From Minisyncoccota bacterium (lineage in GTDB: Bacteria; Patescibacteriota; Minisyncoccia; Phycocordibacterales; UBA9973): a DNA stretch of 59,443 nucleotides. The stretch is taken from positions 232,617 through 292,059 of the forward strand of contig JBDSNU010000018.1 of NCBI GenBank assembly GCA_039915165.1, written 5' to 3'. The notes below the pieces were generated by a model. The model was not told the DNA's origin, made no database searches, and was given only the letters and a program-made list of their open reading frames with translations. Of the stretch, positions 1,721 to 55,138 are shown piece by piece. The stretch's first letter is position 1. Each line of letters begins with the position of its first letter. Both the position numbers and the translations under genes were made by a program.

Positions 1721-2554
1721 ATGGACTCGAAACTAAAAACAGCCTTTATTAAGACTGTTAAAGAATATTACAAAAAACATGGACGGCATGATTTGCCTTG
1801 GCGTCTGACCATTGATCCCTACAAGATCACTGTGTCTGAAGTAATGCTGCAACAAACTCAGGTGGCTCGTGTGATTGAAAAATACCACGAGTTTTTAAAG
1901 GCATTCCCTACAGTGAAAAAGCTAGCAACTGCACCTTTGCAAGAAGTATTACTGCATTGGAGCGGACTTGGATATAATCGCCGTGCTAGATTTTTGCAAC
2001 GCATGGCACAGAGTGTCATCGAAAATCATAATAGTATTTTCCCTCAAACATTCGAAGAGCTATTGAAACTTCCGGGTGTCGGACATTATACGGCGGGAGC
2101 AATCTCAGCATTTGCATACAATAAGCCAATTACTATTATCGAAACAAATATTCGTACAGTGTATCTGCACCACTTTACTCCTTCACTACGCTCAGGACTT
2201 GCGGCGCAAAATGAAATATCAGACAAAGAATTATTACCACTGATCGAACAGACACTCGATGTCAAAAACCCCCGGGAATGGTATTGGGCATTGATGGACT
2301 ATGGATCATATTTAAAATCTACCGGCGTTAAAATTCATCGCACTAGTGCGCAATATAAAAAACAGAAATCATTCAAAGGATCTCTGCGAGAAGTGCGAGG
2401 AGGTATCGTGAAAATTCTGACTAAAGAATCTGCAACCGCAGCCAAACTAGAGAAACAACTTTCTTTTGAAACTGGTCGCATTGAACATGCGCTGCAGCAA
2501 TTATTGCAAGAAGAATTTATTATCAAGAAAGGGAAGTCGTATTCGATTAAGTAG
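1721..2554 (+). CDS. mutY: A/G-specific adenine glycosylase MutY-like (HhH-GPD), short form without Fe-S cluster
   Basis: Motifs GRHDLPWR, SEVMLQQTQV, WSGLGYNRRA and HhH LPGVGHYTAGAI are present. There is no Cys cluster. Confidence 0.85.
   Translation: MDSKLKTAFIKTVKEYYKKHGRHDLPWRLTIDPYKITVSEVMLQQTQVARVIEKYHEFLKAFPTVKKLATAPLQEVLLHWSGLGYNRRARFLQRMAQSVIENHNSIFPQTFEELLKLPGVGHYTAGAISAFAYNKPITIIETNIRTVYLHHFTPSLRSGLAAQNEISDKELLPLIEQTLDVKNPREWYWALMDYGSYLKSTGVKIHRTSAQYKKQKSFKGSLREVRGGIVKILTKESATAAKLEKQLSFETGRIEHALQQLLQEEFIIKKGKSYSIK
2179..2199 (+). repeat. REP-like palindrome family A, in frame in mutY (PSLRSG)
   Basis: tccttcactacgctcaggact; five related copies in the window. Confidence 0.7.
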
Positions 2555-2598
2555 TTACTTCAGATTTTCTTTACTTACCATGCGTATAATGGTCGGTT

Positions 2599-3000
2599 GT
2601 GGAAAAAGATTATAAAAAGGAAATAGAAAGAATTAGAAAAGTATACAAAAAAATCCAAGATACGTATTGTCCAGTGTTGTTTTCAAAAATAACTTTTAAC
2701 GGACAAGGATTTCACCATTTACGATATCATGGAGGTGGTAGGTCTAGGACTGTTGAGGATACATTATATAAAATAAAACTTTTTCCATACATACTACCTG
2801 TAATCATCAACTCTCGAAAGATAGTTGGATATAAAAAAGTACTCGAACCACAAAATCGGACGAATATAAGACCTCAAAAAGAAGTAGAATATTGGGCAAT
2901 CGTTGCAGAAGATAAAAAACTTCATAATATTAAGGTTATTCTAAAAAGAATCGGCAAAGGCAAACTTATGTTCTGGAGTGTGATGAAAACAAAGAAATAA
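2599..3000 (+). CDS. Small basic hypothetical protein, putative BECR/RelE-like RNase fold
   Basis: 133 aa with GTG start 8 nt after TATAAT (2585-2590). Motifs FNGQGFHHL, YWAIV, IKVILKR and MFWSV give a helix-His followed by a beta-meander pattern. Confidence 0.6.
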   Translation: MEKDYKKEIERIRKVYKKIQDTYCPVLFSKITFNGQGFHHLRYHGGGRSRTVEDTLYKIKLFPYILPVIINSRKIVGYKKVLEPQNRTNIRPQKEVEYWAIVAEDKKLHNIKVILKRIGKGKLMFWSVMKTKK

Positions 3001-3030
3001 AAAACACCTTTAAAAAAGGTGATTTTTATT
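2998..3030. terminator. Bidirectional intrinsic terminator shared by the 2599-3000 gene and small RNA 1
   Basis: Hairpin aaaaacacc-tttaaaaaa-ggtgattttt with A and T tracts on both sides. Confidence 0.7.
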
Positions 3031-3092
3031 GTGCTTGGCTTCGGCTTTAGAAATTGCTTTCGTGTCCGAACAAGTCTTACGACCACAAGCAC
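3031..3092 (-). ncRNA. Putative ~62-nt structured small RNA (sRNA1), family unknown
   Basis: Minus-strand TTGACA (3128-3123), 18-nt spacer, TATTAT (3104-3099). The predicted start at 3092 is the first base of a 7-bp closing stem GUGCUUG/CAAGCAC. Internal hairpins are GUC-GUAA-GAC, UUCGG/CCGAA and GAAA-GCAA-UUUC. The terminator follows immediately. Confidence 0.7.
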
Positions 3093-3098
3093 ATTTCT

Positions 3099-3128
3099 AT
3101 AATATCGTAAAAGTATAAATATTGTCAA
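3099..3128 (-). promoter_or_regulatory. sigma70-type promoter of sRNA1
   Basis: TTGACA-N18-TATTAT on the minus strand, starting 1 nt after the MFS stop codon. Confidence 0.7.
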
Positions 3129-3129
3129 C

Positions 3130-4290
3130 TTAACGAATATCAATTAATCTGATTGTATAAAGCGCCCCTGTTAATAAGAGGATGCCTAGGACAATAAATA
3201 GCACTGAGTAAGAAGTTTTTATAATAATCAGCCAGCCCAGAAGTGGAGCGATAACATATGCAAGAGGATGCATCATTGTATATACGCTGACAATGCCTTC
3301 ATCTTGATCAGTAATCTGTTTAAAGAAATATGTTTCAGAGAGCACTTCTACCATACAAATCCCTACGCGAGTACAAAATAGTATAGCCGCATAGATGATA
3401 ATGGAATGGGTATGTTGATGAGCGAGAGCAAAGGCTATAGTACTAATACCGGCAAAAGTAAAACCAAAAAGCAATAATTTTTTCTCGCCAACTTTGTCGG
3501 ACAATTTGCCTACCTGATATTGGAACAATACGAATGCCAATAGCATTACTGAGAATGCGCTACCGATCTGTGTCCAGTTGAAGTGCAATACTCGCGACAT
3601 GTATAGCGGAGTAAACACAGTCATCCAGACATAAAAGAATTGCAGGAGAAAGTTTATCGAGAGTATGCGACGCAATGAAGGAGATTTTTTAATAACATTC
3701 CATGCTGCAGGAATGGTTGCTTCTACATAGGGCCGGTCAATGAATGTTCTTTGACTATACGCAACGGTTATTAATCCGATGAAGAGTAGTACTGCGGCAA
3801 CAATGTAAACGCTACCAATGCTAATCCTTGCGACTAGTAAGCCAGTGAATACTGGCATAACAGCTACTGCACTATTTACTATAGTGAGATACATACCGCG
3901 CGTGTGTCCTGCTGTACGGGCATCTGTGTAGTGAGCAACAAAGAGATCACTACAATACCAAATAGTGCTTGTAAGGGCGCTGTAGAGCACGAAAACAGTA
4001 GTAAATACCAAGGGTGTTGCTGTACTGCCCAATAAAAACATTGCCCCTGATAGTAATGCAAAAATAGTTACTGAAGTTTTTACCAAACCAAATGATTTGA
4101 TGATACGCGGCAAGATAAATAATAGTATCAATGAGCCCATTGCTCCAAAGACATAAAATAGACTGGTGTATTCGCCATTAACAAACCGCTCCAAAGCAGT
4201 TGAGTTAATGTACATAACGATTGACCAGTGCGCGAAAAAGAGAAACGAGACAAGAAATATTGGTCGTAACGCTTTTGAGCTACTCTGCAT
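3130..4290 (-). CDS. MFS transporter
   Basis: 386 aa with ~12 hydrophobic segments; motif A-like GKLSDKVGEKK in the second half. Confidence 0.85.
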   Translation of the reverse strand: MQSSSKALRPIFLVSFLFFAHWSIVMYINSTALERFVNGEYTSLFYVFGAMGSLILLFILPRIIKSFGLVKTSVTIFALLSGAMFLLGSTATPLVFTTVFVLYSALTSTIWYCSDLFVAHYTDARTAGHTRGMYLTIVNSAVAVMPVFTGLLVARISIGSVYIVAAVLLFIGLITVAYSQRTFIDRPYVEATIPAAWNVIKKSPSLRRILSINFLLQFFYVWMTVFTPLYMSRVLHFNWTQIGSAFSVMLLAFVLFQYQVGKLSDKVGEKKLLLFGFTFAGISTIAFALAHQHTHSIIIYAAILFCTRVGICMVEVLSETYFFKQITDQDEGIVSVYTMMHPLAYVIAPLLGWLIIIKTSYSVLFIVLGILLLTGALYTIRLIDIR

Positions 4291-4291
4291 A

Positions 4292-6217
4292 TTATGAAGA
4301 GAGGATTACTGGCAGCACTAGTGGACGTTTTGCTGTCTGTTGGAAGAGATATTTAGAAACGATATCTGCAACAATGTTTTTGATCTGATCAATGTTTGGT
4401 TGCTGCTGACCTTTTGTTTCTTGTTCAATAGTACGCTTGATCAACGCACGTGTGTGACGAACAAGTTCTTGAGATTCTTTTAAATACACGAATCCACGAG
4501 AGATAATATCTGGAGATTTTTTAAGTAGACCAGTTTTGCTGTCGAGTAATGCTACGACAACGAACATACCATCTTCTGCTAGCATTTGACGATCGCGAAT
4601 CACCACGTTTTGTTCATCGCCAACAGAGAAGCCATCAACCATCATAGGTGCAGACGGCGCTTTCTCTTTACGGACACTGATCTTTGTACCACCATCAGTG
4701 ATTTCAATAATTGATCCATTGTCTGGCACAACGATATGATCTTCTGCCATACCCATTTCCATCACCAAGTCCTTGTGGAGCTGCAGACGGTAGTGGTTAC
4801 CGTGAATTGGAATGAAGAACTTCTCATGCATCTTGCGGTGCAACCAACGTACGTCTTCTTTGTTACCGTGTCCTGTTGCGTGAACATATTCTTCGCCAGG
4901 AGTACGGTATCCAATGATCTTGATTCCTTGTCGAGCAATACCATCTTTCATTTTTTCGATAGCACGTTCGTTACCAGGAATGATTGAAGATGAAAGAATA
5001 ACAGTGTCACCTTTCTTCAGAGAAAAGTTTTTGTCAGTCTTGTTTGCTGCACGATTAAGTCCAGAAAATTCTTCACCTTGTCCACCTGTTGAAAGGATAA
5101 GGATTTTGTGTGCCGGGTACTTATCAATATCAGTCATTGGAATAATAGTGTCCTTTGCAGGCTTCAACAAACCAGCTTCGATAGCGATATCGATGTTAGT
5201 TTTCATTGAGCGGCCATTAAGAGCAACTTTCTTACCAAGCTCTTCTGCTGTCTTGATCAATCCGATCAATCGAGTGATGTGTGATGCAAAGGCAGCAATG
5301 ATGATACGTCCATTGATACGGCGCAAAATATTTGCGAGACCTGTGTGAACTTTTGATTCAGCAAGAGAGAAGCCTTCGTTTTCGATGTTGGTAGAGTCCG
5401 TCATCAAAAGCAATACTTTTGCAGTATCAAAATACTTGTATGCTTTTTCTTCTTCAGCACTAACTACGCCATCGATCTGATCGAGCTTATAGTCACCAGG
5501 GTTCACAATATCCCCAAATGGTGTTTCGATGATCACACCCATTGAGTCTGGAATAGTATGAGTTACGCCCCAGAAACGAACTTTGATATTACCAAGAGTT
5601 ATTGACTCATCTTTTTCAACAATAACAGTATTGATAGCAGGAAGTGTAGGGAATTCACTCTGACGTTTCTTCAGCATCAAGACACTGAGGTTACGAGAAT
5701 ACACTGGTGGATTACCGATACGTGAAAGTACCAACGGTACGCCGCCGATGTGGTCAAGGTGCCCGTGAGTAATGATCAATGCGCGGATTTTGTCCTTGCG
5801 TTCCTCGAGGTATCGAGTATTAGGGATGATGTAGTCAACACCAGGAGTATTTTCATTAGAGAAGTGCATACCAGCATCGATAACAATGATGTCGTCACCG
5901 ATTTCGATAGCAGTCATGTTTTTTCCGATTTCTTCTACGCCACCAAGAGGTATAACGCGAATAGTACCTGGTTCTGGGTCAGGGATGTGAGCAGTTTTTC
6001 GTTCTGATATTTCAGTAACTGCGCCAACTTCTGGCTTTGGCCATGCTGGACGACGCTGTCTGTCATGAGGACGGCGGCCGTTAGCGAATGAGCGCTTTGG
6101 TTTAGTAGCAGCAGTTTGTCCTGAAGTAGTTGCATCAGTCGCTCGGCTTGGAGGAGTTGAAGTACGTGGTGCTGGTCGTGTAAAGAGTTCTTTTTTTGGT
6201 TGATTGTTTGGTTCCAT
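4292..6217 (-). CDS. rnj: Ribonuclease J
   Basis: PLGGVEEIGKNMT, THGHLDHIGG (MBL motif), THTIPD, HATGHG and PIHG; low-complexity N-terminal extension. Confidence 0.95.
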   Translation of the reverse strand: MEPNNQPKKELFTRPAPRTSTPPSRATDATTSGQTAATKPKRSFANGRRPHDRQRRPAWPKPEVGAVTEISERKTAHIPDPEPGTIRVIPLGGVEEIGKNMTAIEIGDDIIVIDAGMHFSNENTPGVDYIIPNTRYLEERKDKIRALIITHGHLDHIGGVPLVLSRIGNPPVYSRNLSVLMLKKRQSEFPTLPAINTVIVEKDESITLGNIKVRFWGVTHTIPDSMGVIIETPFGDIVNPGDYKLDQIDGVVSAEEEKAYKYFDTAKVLLLMTDSTNIENEGFSLAESKVHTGLANILRRINGRIIIAAFASHITRLIGLIKTAEELGKKVALNGRSMKTNIDIAIEAGLLKPAKDTIIPMTDIDKYPAHKILILSTGGQGEEFSGLNRAANKTDKNFSLKKGDTVILSSSIIPGNERAIEKMKDGIARQGIKIIGYRTPGEEYVHATGHGNKEDVRWLHRKMHEKFFIPIHGNHYRLQLHKDLVMEMGMAEDHIVVPDNGSIIEITDGGTKISVRKEKAPSAPMMVDGFSVGDEQNVVIRDRQMLAEDGMFVVVALLDSKTGLLKKSPDIISRGFVYLKESQELVRHTRALIKRTIEQETKGQQQPNIDQIKNIVADIVSKYLFQQTAKRPLVLPVILSS

Positions 6218-6246
6218 ATAATTTATTATTTAAAAATTTTCATTAG

Positions 6247-7713: not shown

Positions 7714-7755
7714 AGAGATGGTGCCTCACCTTTATCTGTTAGAGGTAAAAGGAAG

Positions 7756-7971
7756 TTAGAGAGCGATTACCCAAATAGAGAGGGCAGCGAAGAGAACAGC
7801 TACTATAATAGTCAGAACGAACAAAACGCGTTCGAGACCTCGTCGAGTTTGAAAAGCTGACATGCTATCGCCGAAGTTACTGCCAGTATCTCCGCTAGGG
7901 CGCTGAAGAAGTATCAAAGCAATAAGTGCGATGCCGGTGATTAATTGAAGACTGTGTAGCGTTGCTGTCAT
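7756..7971 (-). CDS. secG: Preprotein translocase subunit SecG
   Basis: 71 aa, two TM segments, LILLQRPSGDTGSNFG and TRRGLERVL. Upstream promoter TTGCAT-N17-TATGAT. Confidence 0.85.
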   Translation of the reverse strand: MTATLHSLQLITGIALIALILLQRPSGDTGSNFGDSMSAFQTRRGLERVLFVLTIIVAVLFAALSIWVIAL

Positions 7972-8050
7972 AGGTGAAACGTTGATATCATATCAGAAAA
8001 GAGGCGAGGATGCAATTTTCTAATCTTTATTTTGAGGGAGAAAAAAGTAC

Positions 8051-8079
8051 TTGACAAATATGTATAAAGGTGCTATGAT
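8051..8079 (+). promoter_or_regulatory. Near-consensus sigma70 promoter driving an uncharacterised transcript
   Basis: TTGACA (8051-8056), 17-nt spacer, TGc-TATGAT (-10 at 8074-8079). Confidence 0.8.
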
Positions 8080-8085
8080 GTACTC

Positions 8086-8445
8086 AGACCGGTCATAAAG
8101 ATCGTGTACATTAAATCCGCGACAATCATGCGTAACAAATCACCATCAACGAGTATTTTGTACATGGCAGTTATCTGCACACAAAATATATTTTAACTTA
8201 CCGGCGCCGGGGCCCGCGACACTACAGTGTTGAAGGGGCACACTACAGCCTCCAAAAGAAAGGAAGCAAATGAAACGCGTATTAAAACCTCCACGATGAG
8301 GACTACAAAGAGAGATCTTTGACCAACAGTTCAATGTTTAACCATTATGACGGGCATTCACAAGATGCCCGCCCGCACACAACGAGTCTGAAAGGACCAC
8401 ACACATATATATAACCGATTCTCATTAGAGGATCGGTTTTTTTAT
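8086..8445 (+). ncRNA. Putative ~330-nt structured non-coding RNA, family unknown
   Basis: Bounded by the promoter and a terminator, with no plus-strand ORF longer than ~26 aa that I could find. Long-range stem 8091-8103/8314-8324, plus hairpins gcag-ttat-ctgc and cgggcat-tcacaag-atgcccg. Confidence 0.55.
8413..8445 (+). terminator. Intrinsic terminator
   Basis: aaccgattctc-attag-aggatcggtt followed by a T tract. Confidence 0.75.
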
Positions 8446-8504
8446 TATCGTGTGCTATGCTTTTACTAAATAAACAGATTCGTAAACAATTAAATTAATT
8501 TTGT

Positions 8505-8612: not shown

Positions 8613-8630
8613 TCACAGAATTTCCCTAAG

Positions 8631-21674: not shown

Positions 21675-23444
21675 ATGGATAACGGGTTGATCGAACAAAT
21701 AAAAAAACGATTGCCTATTGCCGAAGTACTGTCGACCTATATTACGCTAGAACCATCAGGAACTCAGTTTAAGGCTCGGTGCCCATTTCATAATGAAAAG
21801 ACTGCGTCGTTTTCGGTATCACCGGAACGCGGTCTTTTCTATTGTTTTGGGTGTGGAGAAAAAGGCGACATTCTTACTTTTGTAGAAAAGTTTGAAGGTC
21901 TTGATTTCAAAGGTGCACTCAAAGTATTGGCTGATCGAGCAGGTATTCCGCTCACTAGTAATCAATATACTAAAGTTGAACCAACTGATACGGTCTATGA
22001 TGCATTAGAAGTTGCTGCCAAAAAATATCAACAATACTTACTACAAAATTCCGAGGCAATTGCATATCTAAAAAATAGAGGACTGACAGACGCTACAATT
22101 GAATCATTCCGTATTGGCTATGCTCCAACAGAATGGCGCAGTATTGCAGGGTCACTCGATGAAAAAAGCATTGGTTTTTATGAACGTGCTGGCCTAATCA
22201 AGGCAGCCATCGCAGGGCCTACGGCGCCCCAAGAAAAACCTCGACACTATGATCGTTTTCGTGGGCGCATAATGTTTCCATTGATGGATAGTAGTGGGCG
22301 TATCGTTGCTTTCTCTGGACGTATGTTTCCTGATACCCCTGAAGGTCCAAAGTATCTGAACAGTCCTGAAACAGAAGTATTTTCCAAGTCACGTGTCTTG
22401 TTTGGTTTTGATAAGGCCAAGCTTGCCATCAAGAAACATAACTTCGCCATCTTGGTGGAAGGACAAATGGATCTTGTATTGAGCCATCAAGCTGGTTTCA
22501 AAAATACTGTCGCTACTTCTGGTACTGCAGTTTCTGAAACCGTGATCGGGGATGCGAGTGCACAACTTTCTATTATTGCGCGACTTACACAAAATTTATT
22601 TTTGGCGTTTGACGGCGATAGTGCTGGTAAAAAAGCTATGGAACGTGCAGCATTAGTTGCACTGTCACTTGGTATGAATCCAAAAGTTGTAGCATTGCCT
22701 GAAGGGGTAGACCCTGCTGACTATATCGGAGGCGTAGCAGGAGATCCTGAACAAAGTGAAGGATTGGGTGCGACTGACAATTGGAAGAATTTATTGAAGC
22801 AGGCAGAACACTTTATTCTTCACACACTTCATGAAATACAAAAGAAGTCGCCATCAGCCCACCAATTGAAACAATCAATCCGTACACAACTGTTTCCATT
22901 TCTTCTACGTGTACCATCTGCAATTGAACGGCAAGTCTATGTGAATACTATTGCCACAGAGTCCAACCTCGGTACAAAAGAGGTTAATGATGATTTCAAT
23001 GCATTCATGTTAGAGAATCAAAAAAATGATACAGAAAGAAACTCAGTACATATGGCACAGAAACCAGCATCAACTGCATTAACACATATCGAACGATTTA
23101 TCGGCTTAGTGGAACTCTTTCCCATTGAATCTGTAATGGTACATAAAAAAAATATTGATGAATTTCAATTCGAAGGATCACAATTAATATTACCCACAAT
23201 TGCAGATGATAAAAAAGAATGGGTGGTTGCACTAGTTGAACGACAATATGCTTCTACAAAAGAAGAAGACATTGAAAGTATAATTAAAGAATTATCAGCA
23301 ACATTGATTGCACAATTTTTGGAACAGTTACGTTTCGAATACTCAATGAAAATGAACGAAGCAAAACAACAGCATGATGAAGAAAAGGAATTGCAGTATT
23401 TAGCACTATTGCAGAAACTCCACCAGCGCCGCCACCAGACTTGA
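21675..23444 (+). CDS. dnaG: DNA primase
   Basis: [11 protein letters not shown] zinc-binding domain, [30 protein letters not shown] and FDGDSAG. Confidence 0.95.
22207..22233 (+). repeat. REP-like family B, diverged, in frame in dnaG (IAGPTAPQ)
   Basis: ccatcgcagggcctacggcgccccaag aligns without gaps to the trmD and leuS copies. Confidence 0.5.
22743..22763 (-). repeat. REP-like family A, in frame in dnaG (DPEQSEG)
   Basis: gatcctgaacaaagtgaagga. Confidence 0.65.
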
Positions 23445-23454
23445 TTGGTCGCTA

Positions 23455-23475
23455 GATCCTGAACGCAGTGAAGGA
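23455..23475 (-). repeat. REP-like family A, intergenic, abutting TTGACA upstream of rpoD
   Basis: gatcctgaacgcagtgaagga-ttgaca. Confidence 0.7.
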
Positions 23476-23508
23476 TTGACATTTCCTCCTTTTTACATGA
23501 TGATACGA

Positions 23509-30923: not shown

Positions 30924-30955
30924 GTGCCCATTCGAATACACTCAGGGCAAAAATA

Positions 30956-30986
30956 AAAACCTCGCAAAGTACTTTGCGAGGTTTTT
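30956..30986. terminator. Bidirectional terminator between the GT cluster and tRNA-Thr
   Basis: aaaaacctcgcaaag-ta-ctttgcgaggttttt. Confidence 0.8.
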
Positions 30987-30991
30987 ATTTT

Positions 30992-31067
30992 TGGAGCCGG
31001 ATGTCAGACTTGAACTGACGACCTTCGCTTTACAAAAGCGTTGCTCTACCAACTGAGCTAATCCGGC
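30992..31067 (-). tRNA. tRNA-Thr (anticodon UGU), CCA encoded
   Basis: 76-nt cloverleaf: acceptor GCCGGAT/ATCCGGC, D arm GCTC/GAGC, anticodon loop TTTGTAA, T arm GTCAG-TTCAAGT-CTGAC. Confidence 0.95.
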
Positions 31068-38522: not shown

Positions 38523-39737
38523 ATGCTTAAATTTTCTATACATAAAAAACTCGAAGGCACGCTTGCACGTGCTGGTGAAATTGAAACAAAGAACGGTATC
38601 ATCAAGACACCGGCTTTTGTTGTTGTTGGTACGAAAGCAACGGTGAAGTCTATGACAGCAGAACAGATTCGTAGTCTCAGTGCGCAGGTAGTATTAGCAA
38701 ATACCTACCATTTATATTTGCAGCCGGGTTCAGATATTGTTGCTCAGGCTGGAGGGTTTGGAAAATTTATGGATTGGCATGGTCCGACCATGACTGACTC
38801 GGGTGGCTTTCAAGCGTTTTCACTTGGTGCAGCGTTTGGCAATTCTGTAAGTAAGGTGGCTACAGGAGATGAAGTATCAAATATTTCTGCCACATCAGGA
38901 CAGCTCGCCAAAGTAACTGATGAAGGAGTGATGTTCAAATCACACTTAGATGGTAGTAAGCATTTATTTACCCCCGAGTCTTCAATGGAAGCACAATGGA
39001 AACTTGGCGCAGATATGATTTTTGCATTTGATGAATGCACTAGTCCGACCGCACCATATGAATATCAAAAGAAATCTTTGGCGCGAACATATGATTGGGC
39101 CAAGCGTAGTCTTGCTCGTCATAATGAATTAGATACAGATAAGAAACAGAGTTTGTTTGCCGTTATTCAAGGAGGGCGCTTTCAGGATTTGCGCGAGGAA
39201 GCCGCACGAACTTTGGGGGCACTGGCCGCAGGTCCTGAGCATAGCGAAGGATTTGATGGTTTTGGTATTGGCGGATCATTTACTAAAGATGATATCGGTA
39301 CTGCTGTTGGCTGGGTGAATGCATTGTTGCCTGAAGATAAGCCTCGTCACTTGCTCGGTATCGGTGAGCCACTCGACCTTTTCAATGCCGTAGAAGCCGG
39401 TTGTGATTTGTTTGACTGTATTGCGCCCACTCGTATGGCTCGTCACGGCTCGTTACATACTGCTGATGGACGTCTTAATATTAAGAACGCGCGATTTACT
39501 ACGGATTTCACGCCGATCGAAGAGGGATGCCAATGTTACACTTGCCAGCATCATACTCGTGCATATCTCGCACACCTTTTCCGAGGCGATGAAATGACCG
39601 CATCGACATTAGCCTCAATTCACAATCTGCATTTCATTTTGCGCTTGGTAGAAAAAATCCGCGAAAGTATTTTGGACGATACCTTTCATCAATATAAAAA
39701 AGATTTCTTGGCACGCTATATCAAAAAAGAGCAGTAA
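38523..39737 (+). CDS. tgt: tRNA-guanine transglycosylase
   Basis: TPAFVVVGT, LANTYHL, TDSGGFQ, FDEC, QGG, FDC..PTR, zinc site CQCYTC..H. Confidence 0.93.
   Translation: MLKFSIHKKLEGTLARAGEIETKNGIIKTPAFVVVGTKATVKSMTAEQIRSLSAQVVLANTYHLYLQPGSDIVAQAGGFGKFMDWHGPTMTDSGGFQAFSLGAAFGNSVSKVATGDEVSNISATSGQLAKVTDEGVMFKSHLDGSKHLFTPESSMEAQWKLGADMIFAFDECTSPTAPYEYQKKSLARTYDWAKRSLARHNELDTDKKQSLFAVIQGGRFQDLREEAARTLGALAAGPEHSEGFDGFGIGGSFTKDDIGTAVGWVNALLPEDKPRHLLGIGEPLDLFNAVEAGCDLFDCIAPTRMARHGSLHTADGRLNIKNARFTTDFTPIEEGCQCYTCQHHTRAYLAHLFRGDEMTASTLASIHNLHFILRLVEKIRESILDDTFHQYKKDFLARYIKKEQ
39231..39251 (-). repeat. REP-like family A, in frame in tgt (GPEHSEG)
   Basis: ggtcctgagcatagcgaagga. Confidence 0.65.
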
Positions 39738-49180: not shown

Positions 49181-50952
49181 TGTATCATATGACTATGAAG
49201 GCACGTAATTGGAGTAGATTTTTTCTTAGCATGACCGCATTTATTGCTGTCATAATTATTAATACTGTTACTGTTATTGCACAGCAAGACAATATCCAAG
49301 AACATATTCAACAATATAGTTCTATTATTGCCGTGCAAAAAAATAATACTATTAATGTAACAGAAACGATTCAGTATGTTTTTCCTGATGGTCAGCAAAA
49401 ACATGGCATCTATCGAATTATTCCACTAAAGGGTATTACAATTAGTAACATTAGCGTTGTTGATGAAAACAATACCAAATACCTTTTTACCGCCTCAAGA
49501 AGTGGCGGGGAAGAAACAATAAAAATTGGCGATGCTGATACATTGGTTACAGGAACTCATAATTATATTTTGCAGTATGTTGTTTCTGGGGCAATTACTA
49601 ACTATAAAGACTTTGATGAAATATATTGGAATGCAATCGGTGATCAATGGAGTTATCCAATAACGAGCAGCCATCAAACAATCATTTTACCTGCCATTGT
49701 TGGGAAGGATGCTTTGAAGATTGCATGTTATAAAGGTGCTCTAGGTTCAACCACAACTTGTAATGACCTTGTAACTATAACTACCACAACTACGACTCAG
49801 ATAGATTTCAATCACTCGGATTCGTTGGCAAGTAATGAGGGTATTACCATTGCGGCAGGTTTTCCAAAAGGTGTAGTTACTGAGCTAACTGCATGGCAAC
49901 GCTTTGTCCATGCCCTGAAAAATAATATTGAATTAATCATTGCTTTAATTATTTTACTAAGCTCAATTGTATATAGTATCAAGAGCTGGTTAAAGAATGG
50001 TCGTGATGGAAAGAGGTTGGGCATAATTGTTGCTCAATACGATGTACCGGAAGGAATGCATCCAAGTGAAGTATATGGATTACTACACAAAAATGTTGCT
50101 AATAGTGCTATTGCAGCCGAGCTAATTAATTTAGCAGTAAAAGGCTATGTAAAGATTGAAAAATTTGAAACAAAGATTTTACTATTTACATCAGATGATT
50201 ACCGCCTGACTCTTTTAATAGATAATAAAAATATTGGCGACACACTTGATGGTGCATTACTCTCAGGGCTGTTTGGGGCGAACACTCATGCTAGGGAAGT
50301 AGTATTACTGTCGGATTTGAAAGGCACTTTTTATACCACTGTAGCAAAAGTAAAAAAAGCCGTCTTCAGTCTTTTGGTTGGTAAGAATTATTTCACCAAA
50401 GATCCAAGTTCCGTTCGTGCTGTAGCAGTTGCTACAGGAGTGATTGGTATAATTGCCTCTATATTTATTGGAATATATGCATTCAATTATTTTAATGATA
50501 TATACGTTTTGCCCGTACTCATACTTGCTGTCATCATATGCGCTGTGACAAAATATCGCTCAGCCGCAAGAACAGTAAAGGGTGTGGAAATAAAAGAATA
50601 CATTCTAGGACTCAAAGAATATTTACAGATTGCGGAAAAAGACCGTATAAATTTTCATAATGCTCCAGACAAAAAGCCAGAATTATTTGAAGCACTACTC
50701 CCATACGCGATGGTTCTAGGTGTTGAAAAAGCTTGGGCAAAAGAATTCGAAGGAATTTATACTACTCCACCCAATTGGTATGTTGACCCAACAATGAATG
50801 GATTTAATACAGGTTTATTGGTAGGTAGTTTTTCAAATTTTAATTCTGTAGCAACGAGTTCATTTGTTGCCCCAAGCTCATCTGGTAGTGGAAGCGGTGG
50901 AGGCGGGTTTTCTGGCGGTGGTTCAGGCGGTGGTGGAGGCGGAAGTTGGTAA
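49177..50952 (+). CDS. DUF2207-family membrane protein
   Basis: HGIYRIIP, EIYWNAIG, LPYAMVLGV..WAKEF, Gly-rich end GGGFSGGGSGGGGGGSW. Confidence 0.85.
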   Translation: MMYHMTMKARNWSRFFLSMTAFIAVIIINTVTVIAQQDNIQEHIQQYSSIIAVQKNNTINVTETIQYVFPDGQQKHGIYRIIPLKGITISNISVVDENNTKYLFTASRSGGEETIKIGDADTLVTGTHNYILQYVVSGAITNYKDFDEIYWNAIGDQWSYPITSSHQTIILPAIVGKDALKIACYKGALGSTTTCNDLVTITTTTTTQIDFNHSDSLASNEGITIAAGFPKGVVTELTAWQRFVHALKNNIELIIALIILLSSIVYSIKSWLKNGRDGKRLGIIVAQYDVPEGMHPSEVYGLLHKNVANSAIAAELINLAVKGYVKIEKFETKILLFTSDDYRLTLLIDNKNIGDTLDGALLSGLFGANTHAREVVLLSDLKGTFYTTVAKVKKAVFSLLVGKNYFTKDPSSVRAVAVATGVIGIIASIFIGIYAFNYFNDIYVLPVLILAVIICAVTKYRSAARTVKGVEIKEYILGLKEYLQIAEKDRINFHNAPDKKPELFEALLPYAMVLGVEKAWAKEFEGIYTTPPNWYVDPTMNGFNTGLLVGSFSNFNSVATSSFVAPSSSGSGSGGGGFSGGGSGGGGGGSW

Positions 50953-50993
50953 AACTCTCGCGATAATTAAAAAATCTTTGCTATACTATTGCC

Positions 50994-51950
50994 ATGCAAC
51001 GAATTGGAGTTCTCCGAGGGGGCGTTAGTCCTGAATATGCGCTTTCTATTAAGACCGGTGCAAACGTACAAAAAGCCTTACATGATGCCGGACTTGAAGC
51101 AGTTGATATGCTGTTGGATAAGGATGGCACATTGCACGTTCGAGGTATTCCCACAGATGTAGAAACTGCCAAATCACAAGTTGATGGAGTATGGAATGCG
51201 CTTCACGGTAGTTTCGGTGAAGACGGGCAAGTTCAACAAGTACTTGATCACTATGACATACCATATACTGGGTCATCGGCAGATGTATCTGCCCTGGCTT
51301 TCAATAAGCAATCAGCCAAAGAGCATGCGAAAGCATTAGGGATTAATACGCCATCGTATCTTCTTATTATTCCTGAGGGGGGAGAGTCTGTATCAGCGGT
51401 GACACAAAAAATTTATAAAACTATGGCACCGCCTTGGGTGTTAAAGCCTTTGGTTGGTGGTGGTTCTGTACAAACATTCTTTGCCTTCACTCCGCTTGAA
51501 CTCTCTCAGTTTGTTGATGAAAGTATATCTAATGCTCAGCCATTTATCGCTGAACAGTATATCCAAGGGAGGGAAGCGGCAGTCGGTGTTATTGATGATT
51601 TTCGACAGCAAGAACACTATGCTTTGCCTGTAGTTGAGATAGCATCACCATCTCGGGGAATATTAACAAATGAAATGCGAAAAGGTGAAGAGCAGTACGC
51701 ACGTTTAAATGGTGGCTTCACTACAGGAGAGCGAGATATGTTGTCACGTTTAGCAAAACAGTTGCATGTACATTTTGGTGCAAAAGATTATTCTCAAAGC
51801 GAGTTCATTGTCGACAATAAAGGCAAGCCATGGTTTTTAGAATTAGATACACATCCGCATTTGACTAATAATTCACCTTTCCTGGTTGCATTGGATGCAG
51901 TAGGAGCTAGTATGCAAGAATTTGTAACATCTGTTGTTAAGGCAAAATAA
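50994..51950 (+). CDS. ddl: D-Ala-D-Ala ligase-like ATP-grasp protein with divergent active site
   Basis: VLRGGVSPEYALS, LHGSFGEDG, PYTGS, VLKP..GGS, EQYIQGRE; C-terminal motifs are atypical. Confidence 0.75.
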   Translation: MQRIGVLRGGVSPEYALSIKTGANVQKALHDAGLEAVDMLLDKDGTLHVRGIPTDVETAKSQVDGVWNALHGSFGEDGQVQQVLDHYDIPYTGSSADVSALAFNKQSAKEHAKALGINTPSYLLIIPEGGESVSAVTQKIYKTMAPPWVLKPLVGGGSVQTFFAFTPLELSQFVDESISNAQPFIAEQYIQGREAAVGVIDDFRQQEHYALPVVEIASPSRGILTNEMRKGEEQYARLNGGFTTGERDMLSRLAKQLHVHFGAKDYSQSEFIVDNKGKPWFLELDTHPHLTNNSPFLVALDAVGASMQEFVTSVVKAK

Positions 51951-51964
51951 GTTATACTTCTTTT

Positions 51965-52492
51965 ATGGAACATACAAACACGCATCGCTCAGGACTTATG
52001 AAATGGTCTATTATTATTGGCATTGTTATCGTATTGAATTTATTTTTTAATTATGCAATTTCTTTAGTCTACAAATCGCCTGATTATAATAATTACTTTC
52101 CACAAACTCAGGTTGTTCCCGACATCAATAATGAACAAGATTGTATTGCCGCTGGTGGACAATGGAATTCCTCGATTCCCCCAGGGCAAGTGCGGAAAGG
52201 TGAAGGGTACTGTGACCCAACATTTACTAAACAGCAGCAATATCAAGCTGCTCAAAAACAATATGACCGCAGCGTTTTCATCATTTTAGTAATCCTCGGA
52301 GTAATAAGTATTGTTACAGGGGCATTCGTTGTAAATGCTGTACTGTCACTGTCATTTTCTTGGGGAGGAGTCCTTTCATTGTTTATTGCCTCTGTTCGGT
52401 ATTGGTCAGATGCAAATAGTTTGATGAAGGTATTTATTCTGGCTATCGCTTTAGGGACATTGATCTGGGTTGCAGTCAAAAAATTTGCTTAA
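51965..52492 (+). CDS. Hypothetical membrane protein with two-Cys extracellular loop
   Basis: About four TM segments; CIAAGGQW...CDP. Confidence 0.7.
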   Translation: MEHTNTHRSGLMKWSIIIGIVIVLNLFFNYAISLVYKSPDYNNYFPQTQVVPDINNEQDCIAAGGQWNSSIPPGQVRKGEGYCDPTFTKQQQYQAAQKQYDRSVFIILVILGVISIVTGAFVVNAVLSLSFSWGGVLSLFIASVRYWSDANSLMKVFILAIALGTLIWVAVKKFA

Positions 52493-52558
52493 TTCATAGT
52501 TCGTGTCAAAAAGCCTTTCATTTGCTTGAAAGGCTTTTTTGTGGAAAAATGTATATAT

Positions 52559-55138
52559 ATGCCCACCTCCGCTAAAGCTTCGGCGCGCCAAAGAACTCCT
52601 GCCACAATATATAACCACTTGAAGGTGGAAAAAAAATGGCAGAAAGAATGGGAGGTAAATGGTACGTACAAAACTGAAAACCCTTCACTACGTTCAGGAT
52701 CTAAACGACTCCAACCAAAAATGTATGTTTTGGATATGTTCCCATATCCATCAGGTGCAGGACTGCACGTTGGACATCCTCGGGGATATATCGGTAGTGA
52801 TGTATATGCGCGCATGAAGCGTATGGATGGGTTCAACGTGCTTCACCCAATGGGCTTTGATTCATTTGGGTTACCAGCGGAACAATATGCGATTCAAACA
52901 AAGAAACACCCCGGACCTTTCACGGATAAACTTGTTGCTCAATATAAAAAACAATTAGAAGTAATTGGATTTTCATATGATTGGTCACGAGAAGTTTCTA
53001 CACACCGCCCCGAATATTACAAATGGACGCAATGGATCTTTTTGAAACTCTGTGACGCATGGTATGACAGCAAGAAAAATAAAGCGCGAACAATTGATGA
53101 ATTAGTAACACTGTTTGAGAAGAGCGGTACAAAGTCAGTAGCTGCATTTGCTGATAATGCTACCCCAACGTTTTCAGCAAAAGAGTGGCAAAGTTTTTCT
53201 GCTATCGAAAAACAAAATATTTTAATGCAGTACCGTTTGGCATACGAAGGATTTGCGGAGGTAAATTGGTGTGAAGAACTTGGTACAGTACTAGCGAATG
53301 ATGAGATTGTTGATGGTCCAACAGGTCCTGTTTCTGAGCGTGGCGGTTTTCCTGTCATCAAAAAAGCTATGCGTCAGTGGTTCATGCGTATCACGGCATA
53401 CGCAGATCGCTTGGTAGAAGATCTCCAGCCGCTTGATTGGCCAAACAATATCAAAGAGATTCAAAAAAACTGGATAGGGAAAAGTGTAGGATCAGAGATT
53501 ACTTTTGAAATTCCTGCAGCACAAACTTCTGTATCTGTTTTTACCACACGTGCAGATACGCTGTTCGGAGTGACATATATTGTCCTTGCACCTGAATACC
53601 CATTCATATCCGAATGGCAAAATGTTATTTCTAACTGGACAGAAGTTGAGGCGTATATAAAAAGCATCGCCCAAAAAGAAGAGAATGAAAGAACTGCAGC
53701 CGATAAGCCTAAGACCGGTATACAACTAAAGGGGCTTACTGCGATCAACCCTGCAAATGGTGAAGAAGTGCCGGTATGGATTGCTGACTATGTATTAGCA
53801 AACTATGGTACAGGCGCAGTGATGGGTGTTCCTCAACATGATGAACGTGACTTTGCATTTGCAACAACATATAAGTTGGCAATTATTGATCGACCACTAG
53901 TTGATAAAAATGAAATTACAAAAAAAGTAGCAGGCACACTTGTTACTAAATATAAAATGCGTGATGCAATTTTTGCACGTCAGCGTTACTGGGGTGAACC
54001 AATTCCATTACGCCACGCAACAAATGGATTGATCACTCCTTTGAAAGAAAAGCAGTTGCCTTTGGAATTACCAAAAGTAAAATCATACGAACCTTCCGGT
54101 AATGGCGAAAGTCCTTTGTCACAAGTAAAAGAGTGGATCAAAGAAGGATATGAAACAAACACTATGCCAGGGTGGGCAGGTTCTTCATGGTACTTCTTGC
54201 GATATATGGATCCGACAAATAACAAAGCATTTGCCGGAAAAAAAGCACTGGATTATTGGAAAGATGTAGATATGTATGTGGGAGGAGCAGAGCATGCCAC
54301 AGGCCACCTTTTGTATAGTCGTTTTTGGCACAAGTTCTTATTTGATATGGGTCTTGTTGCAACAAAAGAACCATTTAAAGCATTGCGTAATCAAGGATTG
54401 ATCGGAGGTTCTGATGGCCGCAAAATGTCAAAGCGATGGGGGAATGTTATTAATCCCGATGATGTGGTGAAATTGTACGGAGCAGACTCGTTACGTTTAT
54501 TTGAAATGTTCCTCGGTCCCTTTGAGGCACACTTGCCTTGGAGTACGGAAGGAATCATTGGCTCACGCAGATTTATTGAACGAGTCTGGCGCCTAGCCTT
54601 GAAGCTAAAAGATCAGGAGAATTTTCGAGCGTCTGGTGAGCGATTAGCGAGGACCAAGGACCGAGAAAATATTTCTGATCTTGGCGCTTCGCAGAAAGCA
54701 CTTCACAAGACAATTAAAAAAGTTACCAAAGATATTCAGACATTTTCATTCAATACAGCAGTTTCTTCATTAATGATTTGTTTAAATGAATTCGAAAAGA
54801 ATGGCGTAAGTGAAAAAGATTTTCAAATATTTCTACAACTGCTCGCACCATTTGCTCCACATGTCACAGAAGAATTATGGAATGGATCAACTAGTATTCA
54901 CCTTGCAGGCTGGCCGAAATTTAATCCAAAGTATCTTGTAGAAGATCAGGTTACAGTCGGTGTGCAAGTGAACGGTAAAGTAAGAGCAGAGATCACTATT
55001 GCTATAGATGCGTCAAAAGAGGATATAGAAACTGCTGCATTGGCACTACCGCGTATTCAAGAATTCTTGCAAGGTAAGTCAGTAAAGAAAATTATTGTTG
55101 TTCCGGGGCGGGTTATTAACATCGTTGCAACCGAATAG
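52559..55138 (+). CDS. leuS: Leucyl-tRNA synthetase
   Basis: MFPYPSGAGLHVGH, GGAEHA, KMSKRWGN, VQVNGKVR. Contains three REP-like in-frame segments. Confidence 0.97.
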   Translation: MPTSAKASARQRTPATIYNHLKVEKKWQKEWEVNGTYKTENPSLRSGSKRLQPKMYVLDMFPYPSGAGLHVGHPRGYIGSDVYARMKRMDGFNVLHPMGFDSFGLPAEQYAIQTKKHPGPFTDKLVAQYKKQLEVIGFSYDWSREVSTHRPEYYKWTQWIFLKLCDAWYDSKKNKARTIDELVTLFEKSGTKSVAAFADNATPTFSAKEWQSFSAIEKQNILMQYRLAYEGFAEVNWCEELGTVLANDEIVDGPTGPVSERGGFPVIKKAMRQWFMRITAYADRLVEDLQPLDWPNNIKEIQKNWIGKSVGSEITFEIPAAQTSVSVFTTRADTLFGVTYIVLAPEYPFISEWQNVISNWTEVEAYIKSIAQKEENERTAADKPKTGIQLKGLTAINPANGEEVPVWIADYVLANYGTGAVMGVPQHDERDFAFATTYKLAIIDRPLVDKNEITKKVAGTLVTKYKMRDAIFARQRYWGEPIPLRHATNGLITPLKEKQLPLELPKVKSYEPSGNGESPLSQVKEWIKEGYETNTMPGWAGSSWYFLRYMDPTNNKAFAGKKALDYWKDVDMYVGGAEHATGHLLYSRFWHKFLFDMGLVATKEPFKALRNQGLIGGSDGRKMSKRWGNVINPDDVVKLYGADSLRLFEMFLGPFEAHLPWSTEGIIGSRRFIERVWRLALKLKDQENFRASGERLARTKDRENISDLGASQKALHKTIKKVTKDIQTFSFNTAVSSLMICLNEFEKNGVSEKDFQIFLQLLAPFAPHVTEELWNGSTSIHLAGWPKFNPKYLVEDQVTVGVQVNGKVRAEITIAIDASKEDIETAALALPRIQEFLQGKSVKKIIVVPGRVINIVATE
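52566..52593 (+). repeat. REP-like family B forming the LeuS N-terminal extension (SAKASARQ)
   Basis: cctccgctaaagcttcggcgcgccaaag. Confidence 0.8.
52681..52701 (+). repeat. REP-like family A, in frame in leuS (PSLRSG)
   Basis: cccttcactacgttcaggatc. Confidence 0.7.
54611..54680. repeat. Longer imperfect inverted repeat, in frame in leuS (DQENFRASGERLARTKDRENISD)
   Basis: gatcagga-gaattttc ... gaaaatat-ttctgatc arms in a linker that is longer than usual. Confidence 0.5.

What the first reader, a model, noticed from the sequence alone, without database searches (positions are those of the whole stretch)
2179..52701. Family A REP-like palindromes translated in frame inside housekeeping enzymes
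Five ~21-nt copies (consensus YCCTTCRCTDYGYTCAGGAYY) occur in mutY, dnaG, tgt, leuS and one intergenic site. The two orientations give recurring peptides, PSLRSG and (D/G)PE(Q/H)SEG, at positions where the orthologues I recall have shorter loops. This resembles Rickettsia palindromic elements: a selfish repeat writing new peptide into essential proteins. No transposase is present in the window.
Basis: partly seen in the sequence, partly recalled or inferred. Interest (0 to 1): 0.65.

Follow-up and report, generated by a model that had tools for sequence, protein, structure and literature searches.

The report
Tiny hairpin repeats inside essential genes
A very small hairpin-forming DNA repeat, whose core also occurs in many other bacterial phyla, has been written in frame into loops of essential enzymes of an ultra-small (CPR) bacterium; this is a miniature, so far unnamed variant of the known REP and Rickettsia-type "coding palindromes", and the enzyme that copies it was not identified.

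Summary
Five copies match at the stated coordinates, against none expected by chance. Four lie in frame in mutY, dnaG, tgt and leuS, where most same-genus orthologues are 6-11 residues shorter. The fifth lies in the dnaG-rpoD spacer.

Family A is one sub-family of a larger family, CCTTC-N7-10-TCAGG, with 48 hits in this 782-kb genome against about 1-2 per other spacing. The unit is a mini-hairpin: stem (RY)CCT/AGG(RY), a fixed TC x TC internal loop (tandem G.A on the other strand), a covarying R-Y pair and a 3-5-nt loop.

- Perfect-palindrome versions are not enriched.
- Copies lie in either orientation, in LigA, RecG (x3), TopA, Fpg, RarA, Dus (x2), LepA, IleS, AtpG and others, in terminator loops and beside tRNA genes.
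- Relatives carry other sub-family variants, or the opposite orientation, at the same loops.
- Counts range from 0 to 35 within the genus.
- One 17-mer variant caps longer covarying hairpins in at least ten phyla.

No mobiliser was identified. The RAYT-like genes are bracketed by other REPs, and small GIY-YIG genes adjoin copies at only 3 loci.

Verdict: a REP/RPE-like selfish repeat, a new variant of a known kind.

The parts
2177..2208 (+). Family A copy in mutY (TC orientation on the coding strand). Core CCTTCACTACGCTCAGG plus tail ACTTGCGGC. Encodes TPSLRSGLAA.
   Evidence: Most orthologues are 6-7 aa shorter. G001 has the opposite-orientation copy CCTGAGCAAAACGAAGG in the same loop.
22743..22763 (-). 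Family A copy in dnaG (GA orientation on the coding strand). The + strand reads GATCCTGAACAAAGTGAAGGA and encodes DPEQSEG within an 11-aa extra loop (residues 352-366).
   Evidence: Most orthologues lack it. G022, G001 and G007 carry variants with a compensatory outer pair, and G017 carries the opposite orientation.
23448..23475 (-). Intergenic family A copy with tail. The + strand reads GGTCGCTAGATCCTGAACGCAGTGAAGGA. It lies between the dnaG stop and the rpoD promoter, and its last bases GGA belong to the conserved GGATTGACA (-35) box.
   Evidence: It is absent from G001, G017, G021, G022, G023, G024 and G016. G007 has arm fragments at the same place.
39223..39251 (-). Family A copy in tgt with tail. 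The + strand reads GCCGCAGGTCCTGAGCATAGCGAAGGA and encodes AAGPEHSEG (residues 235-243).
   Evidence: The 24-nt difference is clean against 19 or more same-genus orthologues. G001, G007 and G021 have a same-length but decayed insert. The insert is a loop with pLDDT below 50 in the model.
52680..52706 (+). Family A copy in leuS. CCCTTCACTACGTTCAGGATCT plus tail, encoding NPSLRSGS (residues 52-59).
   Evidence: G007 and G001 carry CCTTCGACAGGCTCAGGG at the identical position, while G017 and G024 are shorter. It is 22/22 identical to the paralogous copy at C13:44056.
30927..30947 (+). Degenerate member of another sub-family (CCATTCGAATACACTCAGGG), intergenic, just before a terminator hairpin and tRNA 30995-31067 (-).
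   Evidence: An intact orthologous copy, CCCTTCGATTACACTCAGGGC, is present in G001.

Best explanation
The five copies are members of a family of tiny REP-like hairpin repeats.

Shown:
- The unit is 5'-(R Y) CCT-TC-R-[3-5 nt]-Y-TC-AGG (R Y)-3'. About a third of the copies are followed by a short tail, RYCTNCGR. Read on the other strand, that tail is a CGNAG tag 5' of the hairpin.
- On the complementary strand the two TC dinucleotides become tandem G.A mismatches.
- The pairs on both sides of the mismatch covary, so the unit is constrained as a folded single strand and not as a duplex protein site.
- Copies were added to, or written over, permissive loops of essential genes, terminator loops and tRNA-proximal spacers. 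This happened in either orientation and repeatedly at the same sites in related genomes.
- Copies resemble paralogues in their own genome more than the copy at the same site in a sister genome.
- Where the family is rare in a genome, old inserts persist as peptide loops but lose the motif.

Inferred:
- An unidentified trans-acting, structure-specific single-strand DNA enzyme copies or re-homogenises the hairpins. It would be of the HUH/RAYT kind or the small GIY-YIG (Ssn) kind.
- In this gene-dense 0.78-Mb genome, selection then keeps only in-frame copies, mostly in the frames that read P-x4-G (PSxxSG or PExxEG). These are tolerated as floppy surface loops.
- The element is best seen as selfish or neutral DNA, not as something the host proteins need.
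For: Enrichment and specificity:
- 48 hits at spacings 7-10 against about 1-2 at each other spacing.
- Among all CCT-NN...NN-AGG combinations, TC/TC has 41 hits against a mean of 2.9.
- The perfect palindromes CCTTC..GAAGG (6) and CCTGA..TCAGG (2) are not enriched.

Covariation:
- The inner pair is Watson-Crick in 28 of 35 copies against 15.0 expected (GC 16, AT 11).
- The outer pair is Watson-Crick in 27 of 35 against 16.3 expected.
- The formal covariation score is 0.239 against 0.141 +/- 0.026, reached by 0 of 500 shuffles.
- The same loop types exist with both A-T and G-C inner pairs.
- The dnaG site shows CCT..AGG, then CCT..AGC, then GCT..AGC across G000, G022 and G001/G007.

Real insertions in loops: 53/56 and 87.

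Re-use of sites and replacement:
- leuS carries different sub-family variants at the identical position.
- mutY and dnaG carry opposite orientations in sister genomes.
- In dnaG of G022, G001 and G007 the native codons are replaced.
- The leuS copy is 22/22 identical to the paralogue on C13 but only 12/18 to the orthologous-site copy.

Patchy expansion and decay:
- Counts are 0-35 per genome within the genus and up to 45 in a phylum sample.
- The tgt insert has decayed in G001, G007 and G021.

Other support:
- DNA-level nature: both orientations, three frames, and intergenic and terminator-loop copies.
- Frame bias to CCT-first frames: 9 of 14 (p = 0.017) and 7 of 9.
- Precedent: intragenic REPs concentrated in replication and repair genes, and CGTC REPs lacking a dedicated transposase (PMC3733652); hairpin repeats tied to small GIY-YIG ssDNA nucleases (PMC11893778).
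Against: - No mobiliser was found. The three intact RAYT-like genes of this genome, and those of G022, are bracketed by unrelated REPs.
- Small GIY-YIG genes adjoin motif copies at only 3 loci: G000 C13, G037 and one alphaproteobacterium. In 19 other GIY-YIG loci of relatives there was no adjacency.
- An unbiased clustering of ORFs around 119 cross-phylum copies showed no recurrent neighbour.
- Correlations of motif count with gene counts are weak and not corrected for phylogeny: Y1 rho 0.45, p 0.03; GIY-YIG rho 0.33, p 0.11.
- Predicted hairpin energies are weak, -2 to -6 kcal/mol with z about 0.
- There is no orientation bias relative to replication (13:17), unlike IS200/IS605-type single-strand transposition.
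- Conservation of stem and compensatory changes at orthologous sites could equally mean the host selects for the structure.
Confidence: 0.6

Rival explanations
1. The hairpin is a host-useful signal kept by selection. Examples would be a recognition site for a structure-specific ssDNA nuclease that limits or guides recombination of taken-up DNA (as NTS-SsnA does in Neisseria), or a site for a topoisomerase or nucleoid protein. In a genome with almost no spacers it has to sit inside genes.
For: - Stem and mismatch are conserved with compensatory changes at orthologous sites.
- The same 17-mer occurs across at least ten phyla.
- Host genes are rich in DNA replication and repair functions: MutY, DnaG, RecG x3, LigA, TopA, Fpg, RarA. 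The same is reported for DUS and for intragenic REPs (PMC3733652).
- Five small GIY-YIG genes are present in the genome.
Against: - Copy number ranges from 0 to 35 among species of one genus, so the motif is dispensable.
- Old inserts lose the motif while the peptide loop stays.
- Density, about 1 per 17 kb, is far below that of uptake or Chi-type signals.
- There is no orientation bias relative to replication or transcription.
- In a 0.78-Mb genome most genes are information-processing genes anyway.
Confidence: 0.2
2. No dedicated enzyme is involved. The hairpins stall replication, and the nascent strand switches template to another copy using the 5-7-nt arms as microhomology. This copies the loop and tail over the resident sequence, a short-patch 'copy-over' or conversion. 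Occasionally it seeds new copies at sites that already contain CCT or AGG.
For: - Paralogue identity exceeds orthologous-site identity.
- Native codons are replaced rather than simply extended in dnaG of G022, G001 and G007.
- Empty sites often already contain half-arm-like bases: GAAGGA or GAGGGA in dnaG, CCTGAG in mutY, and GGATTGACA in the dnaG-rpoD spacer.
- Tails look like the start of a further arm (CCTNCG), so the layout is arm-loop-arm-arm.
- Family A is clustered locally, with 5 of 8 copies in 59 kb.
- No mobiliser was found.
Against: - This does not explain identical 17-mers in distant phyla, nor lineage-specific bursts.
- The half-site resemblances are short and could be chance.
- Opposite orientations at one site are not produced by simple conversion.
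Confidence: 0.15
3. The recurring peptides (PSLRSG, PExSEG) are selected protein features or convergent loops, or the matches are chance or assembly artefacts.
For: Variation among copies falls on third codon positions in both reading orientations. There is a frame bias towards P-x4-G readings.
Against: - The same DNA occurs in both orientations, in three frames, and in non-coding DNA and terminator loops.
- The 'wobble' positions are the covarying pair and the loop of the hairpin.
- None of 100 shuffles gave a match.
- Copies recur at the same sites in independently assembled relatives.
Confidence: 0.02

Closest known systems
REP / REPIN elements mobilised by RAYT (TnpA-REP) tyrosine HUH transposases, including the intragenic REPs catalogued by Di Nocera et al. 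2013 (PMC3733652)
   Same: - Short imperfect palindromes with fixed mismatches.
- Tens of dispersed copies, with lineage-specific expansion and decay.
- Positions near gene 3' ends and terminators.
- A short conserved tag 5' of the hairpin in part of the copies (CGNAG, sometimes CGTAG).
- Intragenic in-frame copies concentrated in replication, repair and tRNA-synthetase genes.
   Different: - The core is only 17-19 nt.
- There is no general GTAG tag.
- Copies are mostly singletons, not doublets.
- The majority are intragenic.
- No RAYT-like gene in this genome or its relatives is flanked by it; each RAYT-like gene has another REP.
- There is no strand bias.
- One variant of the core is shared across many phyla.
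Rickettsia palindromic elements (RPE-1 to RPE-8; Ogata et al. 2000, from my own knowledge; RPE-4/6 treated as CGTC REPs in PMC3733652)
   Same: A selfish palindromic repeat inserted in frame into housekeeping genes and read through as extra surface peptide, in a reduced genome.
   Different: - RPE-1 is 100-150 bp and encodes 30-50 aa. Here the gain is 6-11 aa.
- RPEs are confined to Rickettsia, whereas this family spans Patescibacteria and its core spans phyla.
- Here the same loops are re-used with different variants and orientations.
Ssn-related motifs (NTS/dRS3 and CGTC REPs) with SsnA-type small GIY-YIG single-strand DNA nucleases (PMC11893778)
   Same: - Hairpin repeats recognised as folded single strands, with the loop sequence unimportant.
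- The genome has five GIY-YIG genes of about 80-105 aa. One of them, plus one in G037 and one in an alphaproteobacterium, sits directly beside motif copies.
   Different: - The motif does not fit the published SRM search pattern (HGTCWY...).
- Adjacency was found at 3 loci only, and at none of 19 other loci.
- Cleavage was not tested.
DNA uptake sequences (DUS/USS) of Neisseria and Pasteurellaceae (own knowledge)
   Same: Short DNA-level motifs tolerated inside coding regions in both orientations, over-represented in genome-maintenance genes and paired in terminators.
   Different: - Uptake sequences occur about once per kb and are linear words.
- Here there are about 45 copies per genome, and a hairpin with covariation.

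Membership tests
REP/REPIN-RAYT | Short (about 20-40 nt) imperfect palindrome present in many dispersed copies | tested here: met
   48 hits of CCTTC-N7-10-TCAGG, with a covarying stem.
REP/REPIN-RAYT | Conserved GTAG tetranucleotide at the 5' end of the hairpin | tested here: not met
   Only about one third of copies have a CGNAG tag (CGCAG, CGTAG or CGAAG) 1-3 nt from the hairpin foot. The others have GCAAGG-type tails or none.
REP/REPIN-RAYT | Copies flank a RAYT gene (REPtron) | tested here: not met
   Four Y1_Tnp hits in G000. The three intact genes are bracketed by GGGGTCWGACCCC, ATGTGCTTTGCTTAGCAACGCACAT or GGGAGCTWAGCTCCC. No motif was found in 8 RAYT loci of relatives.
REP/REPIN-RAYT | Predominantly extragenic, often as inverted doublets | tested here: not met
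   About 23 of about 35 credible copies are inside ORFs. Only one or two inverted doublets were seen, at C13:43914/44056 and C13:84421/84497.
Rickettsia palindromic elements | In-frame insertion into protein-coding genes, translated as a surface loop | tested here: met
   Orthologue alignments for four genes. Tgt model with the insert in a low-confidence loop.
Rickettsia palindromic elements | Sequence family of 100-150-bp (RPE-1) or CGTC-tagged units specific to Rickettsia | tested here: not met
   The unit is 17-30 nt, has no CGTC tag, and occurs in Patescibacteria and other phyla.
Ssn-related motifs / Ssn GIY-YIG nucleases | Match to the SRM consensus HGTCWYN(0-2)YYVSBRHN(0-5)WNVSBRGN(0-2)RNCYNB | tested here: not met
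   Compared by eye with the pattern quoted. The copies lack the HGTCWY head on either strand.
Ssn-related motifs / Ssn GIY-YIG nucleases | Repeats flank the small GIY-YIG gene | tested here: inconclusive
   Adjacent at G000 C13:84142-84360, at G037 (L062, 5 units) and at L168. Not adjacent at the 4 other G000 genes or at 19 loci of relatives.
Ssn-related motifs / Ssn GIY-YIG nucleases | Site-specific cleavage of the folded single strand by the cognate nuclease | not testable with these tools
   This needs a biochemical assay.
DNA uptake sequences | Very high density (about 1 per kb), with strand and orientation features of an uptake signal | tested here: not met
   About 1 copy per 17 kb, and 0-5 copies in most congeners.
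Known structured RNA (Rfam 15) | Match to a curated covariance model | tested here: not met
   No hit overlaps any copy at E up to 1.

The most novel reading that the evidence does not exclude
The G.A-clamped 17-19-nt cap (CCTGAR-loop-YGAAGG, with a CCG/CGNAG tag a few bases upstream) would be the recognition module of a third, still unidentified hairpin-copying system. It would stand beside GTAG-REP/RAYT and CGTC-REP/Ssn and be shared from Patescibacteria to Chloroflexota, Actinomycetota, Bacteroidota and Proteobacteria. It would work by re-targeting existing hairpin sites and overwriting them ('copy-over'). That would explain same-site turnover, orientation flips, partial-arm tails and within-genome homogenisation, including inside essential coding sequence.
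Probability: 0.2. Interest if true: 0.8.

Novelty: new variant of a known kind. Interest (0 to 1): 0.5.

Why it matters
- It shows that even sub-megabase CPR genomes carry active or recently active selfish repeats, and that these remodel surface loops of replication, repair and translation enzymes. This is a source of lineage-specific protein variation, and of spurious 'low-complexity' peptides such as LRQAQG, PSTSSGQ and PEPVEG in metagenome protein sets.
- The precise anatomy (tandem G.A clamp, covarying pairs, tag) gives a searchable definition. It also gives a concrete substrate for finding the responsible enzyme, which could be a useful structure-specific ssDNA tool.
- The turnover at fixed sites offers a natural system for studying how short hairpins are copied without long homology.

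Tried and rejected
- **Peptide-level motif:** rejected. Both orientations, three frames and non-coding copies occur.
- **Duplex binding site for a dimer:** rejected. The symmetric palindromes CCTTC..GAAGG and CCTGA..TCAGG are not enriched, while the asymmetric TC/TC form is enriched about 14-fold.
- **Known RNA family:** none in Rfam.
- **Thermodynamic support for the hairpin:** not obtained, z about 0. The structure rests on covariation only.
- **RAYT linkage:** the RAYT-like genes have other REPs.
- **GIY-YIG linkage:** 3 adjacent loci against 19 without.
- **Recurrent neighbour genes:** an unbiased search around 119 cross-phylum copies found only common families such as SDR, ABC and MFS.
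- **Strand bias:** none relative to genes or GC skew.
- **Literature search by the typical peptides** (FDKLRANG, PELVEG, LRQAQG and others): nothing relevant.
- **tRNA T-loop or D-loop mimicry, K-turn, pMV158-type nick site and d(GCGAAGC) mini-hairpin:** considered from memory and dropped, because the defining positions are not conserved across sub-families.
- **Precise excision in G017 and G024:** cannot be claimed, because the relevant tree nodes are weakly supported.

Full report
**Observation**

None of 100 dinucleotide-preserving shuffles gave a match. Translation confirms the following:
- TPSLRSG in a MutY/Nth-type glycosylase.
- NPSLRSG in LeuS.
- GDPEQSEG in DnaG.
- AAGPEHSEG in Tgt.
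- The fifth copy lies in the 31-nt spacer between dnaG and rpoD.

The window is C8:232617-292059 of a 782-kb, 22-contig, 40% G+C genome. Earlier notes of this scan place it in the Paceibacteria.

**Are they insertions?**

I fetched orthologous loci from 30-40 relatives for each gene.
- **tgt:** most same-genus orthologues read GALP/FDGFG where G000 reads GALAAGPEHSEGFDGFG, a clean 24-nt difference. G001, G007 and G021 have an insert of the same length at the same place, but its sequence has decayed (AASSELAEG, AATADFPEG).
- **leuS:** G000 has ...AAC CCTTCACTACGTTCAGGA.... At the identical position G007 and G001 have CCTTCGACAGGCTCAGGG. G021 has a decayed insert. G017, G024 and the outgroups are 5-7 codons shorter.
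- **dnaG:** most relatives read DPADFI-LKEG-TDAWK, and G000 has 11 more residues.
  - G022, G001 and G007 have hairpins abutting the conserved TGG codon: CCTGAGCAAAGCGAAGC, GCTGAGCGTGGCGAAGC and GCTGAGCGAAGTGAAGC. In these three the native codons are replaced, not merely extended.
  - G017 carries the opposite orientation, CCTTCGCTAGACTCAGG.
- **mutY:** most orthologues are 6-7 residues shorter. G001 has the opposite orientation, CCTGAGCAAAACGAAGG, in the same loop.

An AlphaFold2 model of Tgt (29-sequence alignment, mean pLDDT 85) puts residues 235-243 between helix 221-233 and strand 246-249, with pLDDT below 50 at residues 238-241. The 'extra loop' reading is therefore right.

**What the unit is**

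Relaxing the pattern shows that family A is one sub-family of a larger family.
- CCTTC-N7/8/9/10-TCAGG occurs 24, 11, 6 and 7 times in the genome, against about 1-2 at other spacings.
- Among all 256 CCT-NN...NN-AGG combinations, TC/TC (which is GA/GA on the other strand) has 41 hits against a mean of 2.9.
- The true palindromes CCTTC..GAAGG and CCTGA..TCAGG are not enriched.
- The base after CCTTC and the base before TCAGG covary: GC 16, AT 11, so 28 of 35 are Watson-Crick against 15 expected.
- The bases just outside the arms also covary: C..G 16, T..A 11, so 27 of 35 against 16.3 expected.
- On an ungapped alignment of all 24 spacing-7 hits, chance hits included, the covariation score is 0.239 against 0.141 +/- 0.026, reached by 0 of 500 shuffles.
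- Three different loop types exist in both the A-T and the G-C version.
- At the dnaG site the outermost pair goes from C-G (G000), through a C.C intermediate (G022), to G-C (G001, G007).

The unit is therefore a mini-hairpin:
- a stem (RY)CCT/AGG(RY);
- an obligatory 2x2 internal loop, TC x TC on one strand and tandem G.A on the other;
- one or two inner pairs;
- a 3-5-nt loop.

About a third of copies carry a 3' tail RYCTNCGR. On the G.A strand this reads CGNAG, 1-3 nt 5' of the hairpin. Others carry GCAAGG-type tails.

Nearest-neighbour folding gives only -2 to -6 kcal/mol, no better than shuffles. The structure therefore rests on covariation and not on predicted stability. Rfam has nothing on these sites.

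**Where copies sit**

Host genes of the credible copies are:
- by Pfam: LigA, RecG (three copies), CCA-adding enzyme, Dus (two copies), TopA, ATP synthase gamma, LepA, Fpg, a tRNA-binding protein and MgsA/RarA;
- the four window genes;
- by eye: IleS and an AlaS-like protein.

Other copies form the loops of two long A/T-rich terminator-like hairpins (aaaaaaccac-CAP-gtggtttttt), lie just upstream of terminators, or lie next to tRNA genes.

Orientation is unbiased relative to the host gene (about 14:9) and to GC skew (13:17). Five of the six frames are open. The CCT-first frames, PSxxSG and PExxEG, are over-used: 9 of 14 (p = 0.017) and 7 of 9. This fits a selection filter for Pro...Gly loops.

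**Dynamics**

- Within the genus, counts of CCTTC-N7-8-TCAGG are 35 (G000), 32, 18, 17, 14 and 9, and 0-7 in the remaining genus members. Reversed-pattern controls give 0-6.
- In 150 genomes sampled across the phylum, about 15% have 15 or more hits, with a maximum of 45. Family-A-type loops occur in distant families.
- The leuS copy is 22/22 identical to a paralogue at C13:44056, but only 12/18 identical to the copy at the same codon position in G001 and G007.
- Five of about eight family A copies lie in this one 59-kb window (p about 1e-4).
- A three-gene tree gives (G022,(G001,(G000,G024,G017,(G007,G021)))). The dnaG element-bearing allele (G022, G001, G007, but not G021) cannot be explained by one gain without loss or exchange. 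G000 and G017 must be separate events. Weak nodes prevent a claim of precise excision.

Together these results indicate repeated writing at the same permissive sites, concerted evolution within a genome, and decay where the family is not maintained.

**Breadth**

The exact 17-mer CCTTCGACAGGCTCAGG, present three times in G000, occurs in more than 119 stretches of the species-representative genome collection. The hits come from Chloroflexota, Actinomycetota, Cyanobacteria, Bacteroidota, Alphaproteobacteria, Myxococcota, Acidobacteriota, Eremiobacterota, Latescibacterota, Spirochaetota and CPR lineages. There it usually caps a longer hairpin whose lower stem differs from copy to copy but stays complementary, for example ccgttcat-CAP-acgaacgg and cctcac-CAP-gtgagg. 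It is followed by a conserved RYGARCGG tail.

**Search for a mobiliser**

- **RAYT-like genes.** The genome has four Y1_Tnp (RAYT-like) hits. The three intact genes are each bracketed by their own, different REP: GGGGTCWGACCCC, ATGTGCTTTGCTTAGCAACGCACAT and GGGAGCTWAGCTCCC. The G022 homologue is flanked in the same way by GGGGTCWGACCCC, and none of the eight RAYT loci examined contains the motif.
- **Small GIY-YIG genes.** The genome has five.
  - One, at C13:84142-84360, lies 60 nt from an inverted doublet of motif-like units placed after a tRNA.
  - A homologue in a different family (G037) follows five tandem units in the same tRNA-repeat-gene arrangement.
  - One alphaproteobacterial copy lies 5 nt from a GIY-YIG ORF.
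  - Nineteen other GIY-YIG loci of relatives and four in G000 show nothing.
  - The motif does not fit the published Ssn-related motif pattern.
- **Correlations** of motif count with Y1 (rho 0.45) or GIY-YIG (rho 0.33) counts are weak and not corrected for phylogeny.
- **Neighbour clustering** around the cross-phylum copies found only ubiquitous families.

**Comparison with known systems**

Intragenic REPs, many in replication and repair genes and tRNA synthetases, are documented for several bacteria. Rickettsia RPE-4/6 are treated as CGTC-tagged REPs. CGTC REPs were noted to lack a dedicated transposase (PMC3733652), and were later linked to Ssn GIY-YIG nucleases (PMC11893778).

The present family behaves like these elements. 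It fails the defining tests of each named family:
- no GTAG or CGTC tag;
- not flanking a RAYT gene;
- no SRM match;
- far smaller than RPE-1.

I found no description of it in the searchable literature. Earlier notes of this scan report the same CCTTCGAC...CTCAGG core, and G.A-clamped hairpins, in other CPR genomes. I treated those notes as leads only.

**Verdict**

The finding is a new, miniature variant of a known kind: REP/RPE-like coding hairpin repeats. The copying mechanism is unresolved, and the cross-phylum conserved cap is intriguing.

Noticed in passing
window 30927-30947 (+), with terminator 30957-30995 and tRNA 30995-31067 (-): A degenerate copy of another sub-family (CCATTCGAATACACTCAGGG) sits between a gene end and a terminator beside a tRNA gene. 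G001 has the intact orthologous copy.
   Followed up: partly
window 23445-23500, and the same spacer in L209-L217: The dnaG-rpoD spacer is a hot spot for repeats. The G000 copy abuts, and shares GGA with, the conserved rpoD -35 box GGATTGACA. G007 has arm fragments there. G006 has three tandem 36-nt units of an unrelated repeat.
   Followed up: partly
G000 C8:10526-11143, C8:207205-207867 and C12:13150-13930 (outside the window): Three intact RAYT-like (Y1_Tnp) genes, each bracketed by its own REP: GGGGTCWGACCCC at about 7 sites, ATGTGCTTTGCTTAGCAACGCACAT at about 11, and GGGAGCTWAGCTCCC at about 4. This 0.78-Mb genome therefore hosts several independent REP systems.
   Followed up: partly
G000 C13:84142-84520 (outside the window); L062 (G037): A small GIY-YIG gene is preceded by an inverted doublet (G000) or five tandem units (G037) of CCCTTCGTCG-N-CTCCTCAGG, in both cases wedged between a tRNA gene and the nuclease start codon.
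   Followed up: partly
window about 52575-52600 (the N-terminal extension of leuS): AGCTTCGGCGCGCCAAAG, translated as SAKASARQ, resembles a repeat upstream of another GIY-YIG gene (C8 near 161480). It is probably a further repeat family supplying coding sequence at a gene start.
   Followed up: no
G000 C8:170575-170592 and C13:63191-63208 (outside the window): Two copies form the loop of 15-16-bp perfect A/T-rich inverted repeats (aaaaagaaaaaaccac / gtggttttttcttttt). These are terminator-like hairpins whose apex is the motif.
   Followed up: no
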